A stretch of 64,000 nucleotides of DNA, from the NCBI RefSeq assembly GCF_009914755.1, contig NC_060930.1; one strand, given 5' to 3'. The notes under the pieces were generated by a model. The model was not told the DNA's origin. It saw only the letters and a list, made by a program, of their open reading frames with translations, and did no database searches. Positions 3,420 through 58,238 of this stretch are shown in pieces. The stretch is from the human T2T-CHM13v2.0 reference genome, Homo sapiens. Numbering within the stretch: the first letter of the stretch is position 1; every line of letters starts with the position of its first letter. The position numbers were made by a program, and so were the translations under genes.

Positions 3420-3632
3420 CTGGCATCACAGGAATGATTTGACTCTCTGGTCCCCAAAAGGCGGAATGATTCCTCTTCTCTGTGTTTGATAATGCAGGTG
3501 GCTTGTTTGGGGCAGTGGCTTTCTGAGACTTTTCCACCAAGGAGTCACCCCCTGCATCTTCACTCGGCCCTGTGGTTCTTGGCAGGGCAGGACTAGCTGC
3601 CGTGTGGGTTACCATCTTGCGGTCCAGGCCCA
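3420..3632 (-). CDS. LRP11: LRP11 exon 5 (Ser/Thr/Pro-rich stalk), 213 nt, phase 1-1; gene continues beyond the window start
   Basis: Acceptor cacttcag|, translation LGLDRKMVTHTAASPALPRTT...IIPVMP, donor CAG|GTAAGG. Cumulative CDS is 1252 nt. Confidence 0.93.
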
Positions 3633-3864
3633 CTGAAGTGTGGAAGAGCTACTGTTAGTTGCTGGATTTCTTTTCTGAGCTTTAATACTAAAAACACTAC
3701 ATCTGCAGCTGATTTAAAATCACGGATATTTGGATGTAACAGCCCACTCATCTAAGACATGTCAGAGGACCATAAAAATCTATTCTCACGTTTTCAAATG
3801 GGTAATCTGTTCTTTCTTCTTCCAATAGTCAGCTTTCCAAATGTTACACATAAAGAAATGGACG

Positions 3865-4183
3865 GGGCCCAGCACGGTGGCTCATGCCTGTAATCCTAGC
3901 ACCTTGGGAGGCAGAAGTAGGCAATCACTTGAGCCCACGAGTTCGTGACCAGCCTGGGCAACAAGGCAAAACCCCATCTCTACAAAAAATTAACAAAAAT
4001 TAGCTGGGCATGGTGGTACATGCCTGCAGTCCCAGCTACTGGGGAGGCTGAGGTGGGAGAAACACCTAAGGCTGGGGAAGTCGAGGCTGCAGTGAGCCAT
4101 GATTATGCCACTGCACTCCAGCCTGGGTGACAGAGTGAGAACTGGTCTCATAAAAAAAAGAAAGAAAAGAAAAAAAAAAGAAA
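3865..4183 (+). mobile_element. Alu (J-like) in LRP11 intron 4
   Basis: Alu consensus with A-tail, flanked by aaagaaatggac direct repeats. Confidence 0.88.
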
Positions 4184-4676
4184 TGGACAAAGACTAAACG
4201 TAAACTTAAGGTTTTGAGACTCTTCGTCCTTCCTCAAATCCATACTTCATTACATTTTCTTCAGTTTTTCTTCTTTCTTACAGGGTGTTTCTATGTGTAT
4301 GATATTATAAGACTGATTTACAGCTCTGACTTAGCCACACCCTGGTGTATCGCAAATTTTCTTTAAAAAATTATCAAAACAAAGCATCAAATCACTTCAG
4401 TTTTTAAGAAAGCACATGACATGCAGCATTTTTAGGATAGAAAGAACCTGGAAAATTGAAAAAAATTAAAAACATAAGCAATACTAAAAATTTGACATTT
4501 GAGACTTAGACTAGAGACATATTGAATTCTCATTTAAGGCATAGCTTTTACATGTAAAGTTATAACTAAAATCAAGCAGGGGAAGGACACTGTGTTTGCA
4601 TTTCATTCTCAGAACACAGACCTCCCAACTCCATCCCTTCCAGCCACTGCCTAGCAATGTGACATAGCCAACTCAC

Positions 4677-4802
4677 GATTCTGGCAGAAGTCTTCATCAG
4701 ACCCATCAGGACACTGCTGCACTCCATCGCAGGCGAGCGTGATGTCAATGCAGCAGCCATCGTCACAGAAGAAGTGGTAGCGTGAGCAAGTGTGCAAACA
4801 TC
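4677..4802 (-). CDS. LRP11: LRP11 exon 4 (LDL-receptor class A repeat), 126 nt, phase 1-1
   Basis: Not in the ORF track. Hand translation gives GCLHTCSRYHFFCDDGCCIDITLACDGVQQCPDGSDEDFCQN (CDG...C.DGSDE motif). Acceptor aaatag|, donor C|GTGAGT. Confidence 0.95.
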
Positions 4803-5251
4803 CTATTTGTAAACAAATCTCAAGTCACACGAGTGCAGAAGTTCAGACTCTCAAGATGGGGATGACAAAGGGGAGTCCGTGGGGATGATAAAATGCACTT
4901 CGGGGAAGAGATGCAAATAATGAGGCAAACCTAACAATTCCAGCAACAGGTTCTGGAGAGGTTGGAGGGCTCTTTTTGAGCCTCCCGACTTAATTCTTCA
5001 GACTCCTCAGGGGCTCTTGGTCTGAGGGCTGTTCTCCATGCTTGCCTTGCCAGGAGGTGGCACACAGAAGCAACAGCCCAGGTCTCTCTCCACCCTTGAT
5101 TCCCCGCCTCAGCTGTCTCCCTCTTCATTCATTCATTCATAGAAACCATTGTTGGAACCTCTTCTTCTGGCTGTCGATTGCTCTGCAGGAGGGCACCTAA
5201 TACCATCCCATCCCCTGGATGGCAGTTGGCTATGTTTTAACAGAGATACCA

Positions 5252-5557
5252 TTTATTTATTTATTTACTTACTTAAGACAAGGTCTCACTCTGTCGCCCA
5301 GGCTGAAGTGCAGTGGCACAATCTTGGCTCACTGCAACCTCCGCCTCCCGGGTTCAAGAGATTCTCTTGCCTCAGCCTCTGGAGTAGCTGGGACTACAGA
5401 CATGCACCACCACACCCGGTTAATTTTTGTGTTTTTTGGTAGAGATGGGATTTCACCTTGTTGGCCAGGCTGGTCTCGAACTCCTGACCTCAACTGATCC
5501 ACCTGCCTCGGCCTCCCAAAGTGCTGGGATTACAGGTGTTAGCCACCGTGCCTGGCC
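5252..5557 (-). mobile_element. AluS-like
   Basis: Antisense Alu consensus with (ttta)n tail. Confidence 0.88.
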
Positions 5558-5742
5558 CAGAGGTACTATTTTACATATGCTATGTCTTACATTCTTGTCT
5601 CCTAAGTAATACTTTTCACTGAGATTAAGTTTTTACTATTGAATCCTATTTGTTGATTATCATAACGTCCCTGGTACTGTAGAGAATAAACAAAATTTAG
5701 TTATGGGCTGGCATGAATTTAGTTTCATGAAATAATGACATT

Positions 5743-55831: not shown

Positions 55832-56001
55832 CTAAGACGTCCTCAAGGGCCAGAGACCAGCCTGCCACTCACCATTTTGCCACCAGACACAGATGAGAAC
55901 AATTCCCATTAAAAGTAACAGGATGAATGCCCCCAGGATGATCCATCTATCTGGTAGACTAGAAGAAGACCAGTGGATATCTGAAGCATTTACTGGTGAC
56001 A
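55832..56001 (-). CDS. RAET1E: RAET1E stalk/transmembrane/cytoplasmic exon with stop; total CDS 792 nt = 263 aa
   Basis: Poly-T tract and ag| acceptor, translation VSPVNASDIHW...WIILGAFILLLLMGIVLICVWW QNGEWQAGLWPLRTS*. 85+261+276+170=792. Confidence 0.95.
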
Positions 56002-56684
56002 CTAAAAAAAAAAAAAAAAAAAAAGAAAAGAAAGCACAAGCCCTGTCACATAAAAAAAAAAGCATAAAAATATGCTTTCCTTAGCCCCTGCTTTCCCCAG
56101 GAACACATGGTGCCCCACATAATCACTGGCTCATGTGACAGCCACTCTACCAGGCCCTGGGCCATGAAGATGAATAGGGGTTGTGCCTTGTCCTTATGGA
56201 GCTCAGATTTCTACTGAGAGAGGTAGCAAATATCCATCTGATTACCACACAGTTTCACGATTACTGTGGTTAGAACTGTTTGGAGGATGACACAATGGGT
56301 GGTGCTTAATTCTGTGTGGGGAAGGTGGGGAAGGCTTCCTAAGAAGTGGCATTAGAGCTGGTGGAAGGGTAATTATAATAGAGGAAGAGAAGGCCTGGAT
56401 GTTTGCAATGACACAGATAGACTTGGGACCATTTAGCAGTGGGTCATTGTGACTGGATCATTGGTTAATGGGAAGGGGTTTCTACACTGAGGAAGAAACA
56501 GTGGGAGGTGGGATGGGAAAGGGAGGATGGTGGGAAATCCTTATGGCCATCACTGACTCTCCAGACAGGAAGCCCACGGAGAAGTCAATCAAATTTTCTA
56601 TCGCACACACACACTGACACCCACACAGGGAAGGCTTTTGACCTTTAAAGGGAGCTGCCACATTCTCCCACCCAGCTCAGTTAC

Positions 56685-56960
56685 CTGTCGGTTCTGGCAT
56701 TGCCTCCCAGTGCCCTAAGAATTCCCTGAGCCAGTGATCGCAGTCTCCCTTTGAGAGCTTCCTGAAATACTTTTCCAGCCCTCTGTCTTTCTTCCATGTC
56801 TCCTTGATCTTACTGGCTTCATGATTAATTACTGTCCAGGTCATGTTCATTGCGTCAAAGAGGAGGGATTTCTCTCCATTGATGGTGAACTGCCAGGATG
56901 CACCAGTGCACCGTTCTGCTTCATGTTGACAAAACATCTCGACTTGCAGAGTGGAAGGAT
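56685..56960 (-). CDS. RAET1E: RAET1E MHC class I-like alpha2 exon, 276 nt
   Basis: Acceptor gattgcag|, translation DPSTLQVEMFCQHEAERCTGASWQF...SKGDCDHWLREFL...PEPT, donor CAG|GTAACT. Confidence 0.96.
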
Positions 56961-57221
56961 CTGCAATCCAAACACAAAGCCATCATCCTCCACTCTTTGA
57001 GAGGTCCATCATCCTCCAATAGGTCAAGTGTTTCTCTGCACATTTAGGGGTCTGTATTCTTTCTGCCCAGACTTGCCCTTTCCTGCCCATTGGGTCCCAT
57101 GTGCCTCTATGGTTGGGCCAATGATCAATACACAGATATACCTAAAGCCCCTCCCCATCTGTGTTCTTCCCTCCCCTCTCTTACTGCCTGCCTCCGTTTC
57201 CCCACCCCATTCCACACTTAC

Positions 57222-57482
57222 CACTGGTCTTTATCTGGGGTTTGATGTCACAAAGGAGCATCCTGAGGTCTCGCCCCACTTCTCCCAGCGTTTGGGTCAA
57301 CTCTCCCCAAGTGCTGGTGGCATTTACCTTCTTCCCCAGGAGGCCCAGAGGTTTGACCATGTTGTTGTCACTGTTGTACTGAAGGAAAAGATTTTTATTC
57401 AAGAAGACCTGCGCTTCACACCAGGGCTGTCCAGGTCTGGACAATGATTTTATAGTGAAGTTGAAGCAAAGAGAGTGACCAC
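57222..57482 (-). CDS. RAET1E: RAET1E MHC class I-like alpha1 exon, 261 nt
   Basis: Acceptor tctcacag|, translation GGHSLCFNFTIKSLSRPGQPWCEAQVFLNKNLFLQYNS...IKTS (ULBP-family HSLC.NFTI and PWCE.Q motifs), donor GTG|GTAAGT. Confidence 0.96.
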
Positions 57483-58153
57483 CTGTGAGACAAAGATGCA
57501 GGTGAGGTCCAGGACAGGGGAAGAGGCCCATTAGAACCTGCGCTTCTGTGACCCAAGACTCCCTGGACTGGGCCAGGCTAGCAGAGGCGGGGCAGCTCCA
57601 TCCCAGACTCCCTCAACCTTCTGGATCCCTGTTCCCATCTCTCCCTGACTGTCTGGGATGAGATACTTGATGGTACCAGGGACCCCTGGGGTGCACTTAG
57701 TGTTAATGGTGTTAACAGGAGGATTCATGTCACAAGTACTTTTAGCAACATCTACCAAGTTCTGAGGCACAAAACAGACAAGCCAGTGTATGACCTCCTG
57801 AGACTTAAACTCTAGCTGAACACACATGACATTCAATAGAAAGGAAAAAGAGGCATTTATCACAGGACACACGCTGAATTCCTGCGGGGTCCCAGATGTT
57901 CAGGAAAGTGACCTGGAGTAGAAGGCGGGGGGTAGCATTGTAGAACTGCCCTCTGTGAGCCAGTGCCTTGCCTAGGGCCTCAGGCTGTGGTCTCCCATGA
58001 ACTGGGTGTAACATCCCAGGGATCCTCTCCCTCACGTCATCCTTAAGAGCAGGCACCCACTTGTCTGAAGCCTGCATGAAGCCCCATTCGCCTACCCCCT
58101 ACCTTTCTCCCTCCTCCTTGTCCTCAGCCAGTTCTTGTGCTCAGGACACTCAC

Positions 58154-58238
58154 CAACCATGATCTCCAAGGCTATTAGTAGCAACAGCAGAAACAAAAGA
58201 AGGCGCACAGGGCTAGAAGTCAGGGATATTCTTCGCAT
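58154..58238 (-). CDS. RAET1E: RAET1E/ULBP4 signal-peptide exon, 85 coding nt
   Basis: ATG at 58238 gives MRRISLTSSPVRLLLFLLLLLIALEIMV; donor TTG|GTGAGT. Confidence 0.95.

What the first reader, a model, noticed from the sequence alone, without database searches (positions are those of the whole stretch)
3420..58238. RAET1E and LRP11 are splice-phase compatible: possible in-frame ULBP4-LRP11 chimeric NKG2D ligand
Seen in sequence: both genes are on the minus strand, head-to-tail. All four coding RAET1E donors are phase 1 (cumulative 85, 346, 622, 751 nt), and the LRP11 acceptors of exons 2, 4 and 5 are phase 1 (after 613, 913, 1039 nt). Splicing the alpha2 donor (56685) to LRP11 exon 2 (20467) reads ...WEAMPEPT-EKDAPPLSK... 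with no stop. This would swap the LRP11 MANSC head for the MHC-I-like NKG2D-binding platform, on a PKD-LDLa-stalk plus the LRP11 TM/tail. Established: read-through transcripts often skip the upstream gene's last exon and join exon 2 of the downstream gene. I recall a read-through locus being annotated here, as non-coding; this is unverified. Inference: a coding variant would be an elongated, differently trafficked NKG2D ligand. Caveat: phase 1 is the norm for extracellular-domain exons, so compatibility alone is weak evidence.
Basis: partly seen in the sequence, partly recalled or inferred. Interest (0 to 1): 0.8.

Follow-up and report, generated by a model that had tools for sequence, protein, structure and literature searches.

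The report
RAET1E-LRP11 phase match: ordinary, chimera unproven
The reading frames of the neighbouring human genes RAET1E and LRP11 do fit at their exon borders, but this is expected for genes built from extracellular-domain exons, and the one catalogued joint transcript stops right after the RAET1E part, so a fused immune ligand remains an untested idea.

Summary
All four RAET1E coding donors are phase 1, the LRP11 acceptors of exons 2, 4 and 5 (and 6) are phase 1, and joining 56685 to 20467 gives an open frame to the window edge. It is not more than the gene architecture predicts. 16 of 20 donor-acceptor pairs are compatible, and "no stop" follows automatically because both halves are read in their native frames. 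Each domain sits on 1-1 exon modules.

The only annotated read-through, NR_182438.1, carries four intergenic exons. From the RAET1E ATG it stops at codon 258, 23 nt into exon 36202-37225, with 1001 nt and 7 junctions in the window still downstream, so it looks like an NMD target. Of 256 exon combinations, 12 are open, and all 12 lack every intergenic exon.

No paper in the library links the two genes by a transcript. Transcript data could not be queried.

Verdict: a known non-coding read-through, probably leaking past a weak TATAAA poly(A) signal, plus ordinary phase-1 modularity. The in-frame ULBP4-LRP11 chimera is possible but has no support. Interest is low.

The parts
58154..58238 (-). RAET1E coding exon 1 (ATG and signal peptide); donor at 58154 is phase 1
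   Evidence: 85 nt of coding sequence; donor context TTG|GTGAGT.
57222..57482 (-). RAET1E alpha1 exon, 261 nt, phase 1-1
   Evidence: MHC_I_2 profile positions 3-79 of 174 (E 0.00099, below the gathering score when the exon is scanned alone).
56685..56960 (-). RAET1E alpha2 exon, 276 nt, phase 1-1; its donor at 56685 is the one proposed for the chimera
   Evidence: MHC_I 94-173 of 179 (31.9 bits, cut-off 28.3); donor CAG|GTAACT matches 8 of 9 consensus positions.
55873..56001 (-). RAET1E exon 4, short form (stalk and transmembrane segment). The internal donor at 55873 is phase 1 and is used by isoform 0 and by the read-through. The acceptor is preceded by a run of 21 T.
   Evidence: Zoller et al. 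2018, PMC5884875 (passages).
50513..51839 (-). RAET1E exon 5. Its acceptor at 51839 is also phase-1 compatible with the 55873 and 56685 donors (isoforms 0 and 3). The 3' end at 50513 has only a TATAAA variant signal.
   Evidence: isoform ends at 256 and 213 aa; TATAAA 22 nt upstream; no AATAAA or ATTAAA in the last 60 nt.
36202..37225 (-). First intergenic exon of NR_182438.1. It holds the stop codon of the RAET1E frame at 37203-37205.
   Evidence: stop at codon 258, 23 nt into the exon, 1001 nt before the next junction; 19 stops in incoming phase 1.
36043..36120 (-). Second intergenic exon (78 nt)
   Evidence: 3 stops in incoming phase 1. AG/GT borders.
32557..32685 (-). Third intergenic exon (129 nt). 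It holds the ATG of a downstream ORF that runs into the LRP11 frame.
   Evidence: 3 stops in phase 1, 0 in phase 2..
32226..32338 (-). Fourth intergenic exon (113 nt), derived from a dispersed repeat, with a GC donor
   Evidence: CAG|GCGAGT; 13 blastn hits in the window, self included; the other copies listed are 76-84% identical.
30749..31361 (-). LRP11 exon 1 coding part (signal peptide and MANEC/MANSC domain). As a first exon it has no acceptor and is skipped by the read-through.
   Evidence: no AG before 31700. MANEC, E 3.7e-25.
20310..20467 (-). LRP11 exon 2 (first half of the PKD domain). The acceptor is phase 1 with a strong pyrimidine tract.
   Evidence: K319L-like_PKD 1-44 of 84; 16 of 18 pyrimidines.
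10319..10460 (-). LRP11 exon 3 (second half of the PKD domain); acceptor is phase 0
   Evidence: K319L-like_PKD 48-84 of 84.
4677..4802 (-). LRP11 exon 4 (LDL-receptor class A module), 126 nt, phase 1-1
   Evidence: Ldl_recept_a, E 6.5e-09.
3420..3632 (-). LRP11 exon 5 (stalk rich in Pro, Ala, Ser and Thr; no domain), 213 nt, phase 1-1
   Evidence: 0 families; composition.

Best explanation
RAET1E and LRP11 are two type I membrane-protein genes built from class 1-1 exon modules: signal peptide, MHC-I alpha1, alpha2 and stalk/TM in one, and PKD, LDLa and stalk in the other. Almost any donor of the first gene is therefore in frame with almost any acceptor of the second. This compatibility comes from the ancestry of the modules. 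It is not a feature selected at this locus.

What exists here is a read-through RNA. Some polymerases pass the weak RAET1E poly(A) site (a TATAAA variant). The exon-4 internal donor at 55873 then splices to four intergenic exons and on to LRP11 exon 2, because LRP11 exon 1 has no acceptor. In that RNA the RAET1E frame ends 23 nt into the first intergenic exon. At most it encodes a ULBP4 with a third alternative short tail, and it is a predicted target of nonsense-mediated decay. The LRP11 part is untranslated.

Shown: the phases, the splice sites, the stop and the domain map. Inferred: the weakness of the poly(A) site, NMD, and the rarity of any transcript that skips exon 4, exon 5 and all four intergenic exons.
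For: - Phases and splice sites.
- 16 of 20 donor-acceptor pairs are compatible; there are 0 stops only in the native phase.
- Even the RAET1E exon 5 acceptor is phase-1 compatible with both the 55873 and 56685 donors, giving the known isoforms 0 and 3 (Zoller 2018, PMC5884875, passages).
- Every domain maps onto exons whose borders are phase 1.
- In NR_182438.1 the stop is at codon 258 (window 37203-37205), with 1001 nt to the next junction and 7 junctions downstream in the window plus 2 outside.
- 12 of 256 exon combinations are open, and none of them holds an intergenic exon.
- The only poly(A) hexamer in the last 60 nt of RAET1E is TATAAA, 22 nt upstream.
- The gap between the genes is 18,812 nt and they lie on the same strand. 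[quoted passage not shown]
- RefSeq files the locus as lncRNA (hub table).
Against: - Nothing in the sequence forbids the in-frame junction. The 56685 donor matches 8 of 9 consensus positions. The LRP11 exon 2 acceptor (16 of 18 pyrimidines) is stronger than those of the four intergenic exons (11-14 of 18).
- Skipping of exon 4 from the 56685 donor has precedent in isoform 3.
- Qin 2015 amplified a second-to-last-to-second-exon product for 4 of 20 random neighbour pairs, so trace junctions are not unlikely.
- I could not query RNA-seq junctions, long reads, ESTs or proteomics. Absence of evidence here rests on one RefSeq model and on literature searches of main texts only.
- That TATAAA is a weak signal, and the 50-55 nt NMD rule, are recalled knowledge and were not tested here.
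Confidence: 0.8

Rival explanations
1. A minor mRNA joins the RAET1E alpha2 donor (56685) directly to LRP11 exon 2 (20467). It is translated into a surface protein with the NKG2D-binding alpha1-alpha2 platform on the LRP11 PKD-LDLa-stalk, transmembrane segment and tail. This would be a taller and differently trafficked NKG2D ligand.
For: - The frame is open: 420 codons to the window edge with 0 stops.
- The junction falls between domains. Alpha2 ends at profile position 168-173, and the PKD profile starts at residue 9 of exon 2.
- The type I topology is kept.
- Read-through transcription across the gap is annotated (hub table).
- The 56685 donor is known to skip exon 4 in isoform 3.
- The LRP11 exon 2 acceptor is strong.
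- The base rate is 4 of 20 for junctions of this kind.
Against: - No transcript, cDNA or protein of this form was found. 'RAET1E-LRP11' gave 0 papers and NR_182438 gave 0. The 3 papers holding RAET1E and LRP11 and the 1 holding ULBP4 and LRP11 do not deal with a joint transcript.
- The supplements that could be searched (RTCpredictor, 1 file; the GTEx chimeric-RNA paper, only 344 characters held) had no occurrence.
- The annotated read-through keeps exon 4 and four stop-bearing exons.
- The donor would have to stay unspliced over 36,217 nt while passing six competing acceptors, including one behind a T21 tract.
- ULBP4 mRNA itself is scarce and tissue-restricted, and the protein was mostly retained inside HeLa cells (PMC5884875, passages).
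Confidence: 0.05
2. The read-through is regulatory rather than noise. Diverting RAET1E pre-mRNA into an NMD-targeted read-through form lowers ULBP4 output, and/or transcription running through the LRP11 promoter interferes with LRP11 initiation.
For: - The stop has 1001 nt and at least 7 junctions downstream.
- The read-through crosses the LRP11 promoter region and skips exon 1 (hub table).
- RAET1E has a weak-looking poly(A) signal.
- An antisense RNA (RAET1E-AS1) starting over LRP11 exon 1 covers the same interval (hub table).
Against: There are no expression data. One of the intergenic exons is a dispersed repeat with a GC donor, which suggests recent, unselected exonisation. Read-through RNAs are common by-products (Qin 2015).
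Confidence: 0.12
3. The read-through RNA serves to make an N-terminally novel LRP11. An ORF starts at an ATG in exon 32557-32685 and runs in frame into LRP11 exon 2.
For:: the LRP11 frame is open for 83 codons upstream of exon 2 in NR_182438.1. An ORF of 281 codons runs from nt 2306 of the window part of the transcript to the window edge.
Against: It begins after a 257-codon ORF and 15 intervening ATGs. It has no signal peptide (the start is basic and hydrophilic), so the disulfide-rich PKD and LDLa modules would not enter the ER in the normal way. Part of the leader is repeat-derived.
Confidence: 0.02

Closest known systems
cis-splicing of adjacent genes (cis-SAGe), also called transcription-induced chimeras or conjoined genes; rules in Qin et al. 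2015, PMC4450057
   Same: The genes are same-strand neighbours 18.8 kb apart (under 30 kb). The 3' partner is entered at its second exon because exon 1 has no acceptor. [quoted passage not shown]
   Different: The annotated product has four extra intergenic exons and is out of frame or terminated. It belongs with the 'out-of-frame / non-coding' class of that paper, not with the in-frame class.
ULBP4 isoforms 0 and 3 (Zoller et al. 2018, PMC5884875)
   Same: They use the same donors (55873 and 56685) and the same phase-1 logic, so alternative 3' exons give alternative C-termini. The read-through ORF is a ULBP4 with the full ectodomain and membrane anchor and a short new tail, like isoform 0.
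   Different: Isoforms 0 and 3 end in RAET1E exon 5 and are polyadenylated at 50513. The read-through skips exon 5 and continues into LRP11, which leaves the stop far upstream of many junctions.
TWE-PRIL (TNFSF12-TNFSF13), an in-frame read-through fusion of two neighbouring ligand genes (recalled, not from any call)
   Different: As I recall, TWE-PRIL has cDNA and protein evidence. For ULBP4-LRP11 none was found here.
Class 1-1 exon modules of extracellular proteins (the exon-shuffling rule; recalled from Patthy's work. One search gave only listings, no text was read)
   Same: Alpha1 (261 nt), alpha2 (276 nt), PKD (158+142 nt), LDLa (126 nt) and stalk (213 nt) are all flanked by phase-1 introns and coincide with domain borders.
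   Different: Nothing differs; this locus is a textbook case.

Membership tests
Read-through (cis-SAGe) locus | Parental genes are neighbours on the same strand | tested here: met
   All exons of both genes read on the minus strand with RAET1E upstream (hub table).
Read-through (cis-SAGe) locus | Intergenic distance under 30 kb (Qin 2015) | tested here: met
   18,812 nt between the RAET1E 3' end (50513) and the start of LRP11 exon 1 (31700).
Read-through (cis-SAGe) locus | [quoted passage not shown] | tested here: inconclusive
   NR_182438.1 leaves RAET1E at the 55873 donor (second-to-last exon of isoform 0) and enters LRP11 at exon 2, but through four intergenic exons rather than directly (hub table).
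Read-through (cis-SAGe) locus | The 5' gene is actively transcribed in the tissue where the chimera is seen | not testable with these tools
   No expression data were available. Zoller 2018 reports ULBP4 mRNA mainly in skin, oesophagus, cervix and HeLa.
In-frame, protein-coding read-through fusion | An observed transcript carries one ORF from the 5' gene's ATG into the 3' gene's frame | tested here: not met
   The only annotated transcript stops at codon 258 in exon 36202-37225. The open versions are hypothetical joins: 12 of 256, all without intergenic exons.
In-frame, protein-coding read-through fusion | Phase compatibility of donor and acceptor | tested here: met
   16 of 20 pairs are compatible.
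NMD substrate | The stop codon lies more than about 50-55 nt upstream of the last exon-exon junction (rule recalled) | tested here: met
   The stop is at 37203-37205, 1001 nt before the next junction. Seven junctions follow in the window and 2 more outside it. Actual decay was not tested.
ULBP/RAET1 NKG2D ligand (the RAET1E part) | MHC class I-like alpha1-alpha2 platform | tested here: met
   Exon 2 matches MHC_I_2 3-79 and exon 3 matches MHC_I 94-173 (31.9 bits, cut-off 28.3) and MHC_I_2 91-168 (27.3, cut-off 27). The alpha1 exon scanned alone is below the cut-off. NKG2D binding was not tested here.
LRP11 architecture (MANSC-PKD-LDLa) | The MANEC/MANSC, PKD and LDLa domains lie in separate exon sets | tested here: met
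   Exon 1 MANEC 3.7e-25; exons 2 and 3 K319L-like_PKD 1-44 and 48-84 of 84; exon 4 Ldl_recept_a 6.5e-09. The transmembrane segment and tail are outside the window and were not seen.

The most novel reading that the evidence does not exclude
In RAET1E-expressing squamous epithelia or carcinoma cells, a rare mRNA joins the alpha2 donor (56685) directly to LRP11 exon 2 (20467). It escapes NMD because its frame runs to the LRP11 stop. It puts a working NKG2D-binding platform on the long PKD-LDLa stalk with the LRP11 anchor and tail. The result is a ligand with different height, shedding and trafficking from ULBP4.
Probability: 0.04. Interest if true: 0.55.

Novelty: already known. Interest (0 to 1): 0.12.

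Why it matters
If a coding ULBP4-LRP11 chimera existed, it would add a structurally unusual NKG2D ligand, with possible effects on shedding, on synapse geometry and on antibody-based detection of ULBP4. As things stand, the locus shows an ordinary point: phase compatibility between neighbouring genes for extracellular proteins is nearly automatic and should not be read as evidence for a fusion protein. The practical value is limited to three points. The RefSeq read-through, if it encodes anything, encodes a ULBP4 with a third alternative tail. It looks like an NMD target. Primer or probe sets in LRP11 exons 2-7 may pick up RAET1E-promoter-driven RNA.

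Tried and rejected
- **Intergenic exons carrying the frame:** I asked whether any subset of the four annotated intergenic exons could carry the RAET1E frame into LRP11. 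None can. 0 of the 12 open combinations among 256 contains one. Exons 32557-32685 and 32226-32338 are open only in incoming phase 2, which no RAET1E donor supplies.
- **Extra gene copies in the gap:** a search for extra RAET1E-like or LRP11-like coding pieces in the window, such as a pseudogene in the gap, found only the exons themselves; all other tblastn hits had E above 0.1.
- **Tandem repeats:** arrays in 31000-58500 number five, are short, and are unrelated to the exons.
- **Literature:**
  - 'RAET1E-LRP11' gave 0 papers and 'NR_182438' gave 0.
  - RAET1E plus LRP11 gave 3 papers: a gene-order list, a CSF pQTL table row and an eQTL remark.
  - ULBP4 plus LRP11 gave 1 paper, one of the same three.
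  - Two broader searches pairing each gene name with read-through or chimera terms listed 25 papers each. None of them contained the gene name. The ranking favoured papers with many generic terms, so these two searches are weak negatives.
- **Supplements:** the RTCpredictor supplement (1 file) had no occurrence. For the GTEx chimeric-RNA paper only 344 characters of supplement were held, so that look-up says nothing. Supplementary catalogues of chimeric RNAs that I could not see may list this pair.
- **Exon-shuffling citation:** a search for a citable text on 1-1 exon modules gave listings only, so that rule is cited from memory.

Full report
**Observation.** The window is human chr6 (T2T-CHM13) with LRP11 and RAET1E head-to-tail on the minus strand (hub table).
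- I read every annotated exon border. All internal exons of RAET1E, LRP11 and the read-through NR_182438.1 have AG before and GT after the exon. The exception is a GC donor at 32226.
- The RAET1E coding parts add up to 85, 346 and 622 nt, and to 751 nt with the internal donor at 55873. All four donors are phase 1.
- The LRP11 coding parts add up to 613, 771, 913, 1039 and 1252 nt. The acceptors of exons 2, 4, 5 and 6 are therefore phase 1, and that of exon 3 is phase 0.
- The other proposed joins (57222>20467, 55873>20467, 56685>4802) and 58154>20467 are open too.

**Is it more than chance?** No.
- 16 of the 20 donor-acceptor pairs are compatible.
- The absence of stops is not a second observation. 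LRP11 exons 2-5 have 0 stops when entered in phase 1, which is their native frame, and 8 and 12 stops in the other two phases.
- Even RAET1E's own alternative last exon (acceptor 51839) is in frame with both the 55873 and the 56685 donors. These joins give proteins of 256 and 213 residues. They correspond to ULBP4 isoform 0 and the soluble isoform 3 described by Zoller et al. 2018 (PMC5884875, passages read).

**Domain map.**
- LRP11 exon 1: MANEC/MANSC (E 3.7e-25).
- LRP11 exons 2 and 3: the two halves of a K319L-like PKD domain (profile 1-44 and 48-84 of 84).
- LRP11 exon 4: an LDL-receptor class A module.
- LRP11 exon 5: no domain; it is rich in Pro, Ala, Ser and Thr.
- RAET1E exons 2 and 3: the alpha1 and alpha2 halves of the MHC-I-like platform.
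- Each module is therefore bounded by phase-1 introns. This is the classic 1-1 exon-module pattern of extracellular proteins (recalled from Patthy's work; one search gave only listings). The compatibility is inherited with the modules.

**What is actually annotated.**
- NR_182438.1 leaves RAET1E at the 55873 donor.
- It skips exon 5 and the poly(A) site at 50513.
- It passes through four intergenic exons (36202-37225, 36043-36120, 32557-32685, 32226-32338) and enters LRP11 at exon 2. LRP11 exon 1 has no acceptor.
- From the RAET1E ATG the frame stops at codon 258, at window 37203-37205, which is 23 nt into the first intergenic exon.
- The stop lies 1001 nt before the next junction. Seven more junctions follow in the window and two more outside it.
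- By the usual 50-55 nt rule (recalled) this is an NMD target. If translated at all, it gives a ULBP4 with complete ectodomain and anchor and a short new tail.
- I enumerated 4 donors x 16 subsets of the intergenic exons x 4 LRP11 acceptors. Of these 256 combinations, 12 are open and none of the 12 contains an intergenic exon.
- Each intergenic exon has stops in incoming phase 1: 19, 3, 3 and 1 respectively.
- The fourth intergenic exon is a dispersed repeat, with 13 blastn hits in the window.

**Mechanism.**
- The last 60 nt of RAET1E hold no AATAAA or ATTAAA, only TATAAA 22 nt before the end. I recall that this variant is a weak signal. It would explain leakage past the site.
- The two genes are 18,812 nt apart. 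They meet the rules for cis-splicing of adjacent genes in Qin et al. 2015 (PMC4450057, passages): same strand, under 30 kb, entry at the second exon.
- In that paper 4 of 20 random neighbour pairs gave a direct second-to-last-to-second-exon product. Out-of-frame fusions were mostly nuclear.

**Could the in-frame chimera still exist?**
- Points in favour:
  - The 56685 donor matches 8 of 9 consensus positions.
  - The LRP11 exon 2 acceptor has 16 of 18 pyrimidines. That is better than the intergenic acceptors, which have 11-14.
  - Exon-4 skipping from this donor is known from isoform 3.
  - The junction falls between domains and keeps type I topology.
- Points against:
  - The donor would need to stay unspliced across 36,217 nt. 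It would have to pass six acceptors, including the exon-4 acceptor behind a T21 tract.
  - The 55873>20467 variant would keep the RAET1E anchor. By inference that places the PKD-LDLa part in the cytosol, so it is not a sensible ligand.
- I estimate roughly a one-in-three chance that trace junction reads exist somewhere, and about 0.04 that a functional protein results.

**Literature.**
- 'RAET1E-LRP11' gave 0 papers and 'NR_182438' gave 0.
- RAET1E with LRP11 gave 3 papers, none about a joint transcript. ULBP4 with LRP11 gave 1 of the same papers.
- The broader searches were weak negatives, because their ranking favoured papers with many generic terms.
- Two supplement look-ups found nothing, and the second covered only 344 characters.
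Transcript, EST and proteome data could not be queried with these tools, so the negative is limited.

**Verdict.** The locus is a known non-coding read-through plus ordinary phase-1 exon modularity. Novelty: already known. Interest 0.12.

Noticed in passing
window 50513-50572 (minus strand): The RAET1E 3' end has no AATAAA or ATTAAA in its last 60 nt, only a TATAAA variant 22 nt upstream. The 60 nt downstream are not markedly GU-rich (G+T fraction 0.55). This is a likely cause of the read-through.
   Followed up: partly
window 56002-56024 (minus strand): A run of 21 T abuts the AG acceptor of RAET1E exon 4. Length variation in such a tract could change exon-4 inclusion, and with it the ratio of membrane to soluble (isoform 3) ULBP4.
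   Followed up: no
window 32226-32685 and 20310-20467 (minus strand): In NR_182438.1 a second ORF starts at an ATG in exon 32557-32685 and runs in frame into LRP11 exon 2, with 83 open codons upstream of exon 2. It lacks a signal peptide and lies behind 15 ATGs after the first ORF.
   Followed up: partly
window 32226-32338: This read-through exon is a dispersed repeat. It has 13 blastn hits in the window, self included, and the other copies listed are 76-84% identical. It uses a GC donor. This looks like recent exonisation.
   Followed up: partly
window 30839-31723 and 57440-57501 (+ strand): According to the hub table, RAET1E-AS1 has an exon over LRP11 exon 1 and another over the RAET1E alpha1 exon. 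An antisense RNA therefore spans the same interval as the read-through, and convergent transcription is possible.
   Followed up: no
outside the window (literature): A 2026 CSF pQTL table lists a broad-cis signal for LRP11 protein at rs1889472, with RAET1E given as the gene at the variant (PMC13585789, one table row seen). This shows shared regulation or linkage across the two genes, not a chimera.
   Followed up: no
window 36202-37225: The 1024-nt intergenic exon holds a short internal direct repeat: positions 81-110 and 146-175 of the exon are 93% identical. The only likeness to RAET1E coding exons in it was a weak tblastn match to the alpha2 exon (E 0.24), and there was none to LRP11 exons.
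   Followed up: partly
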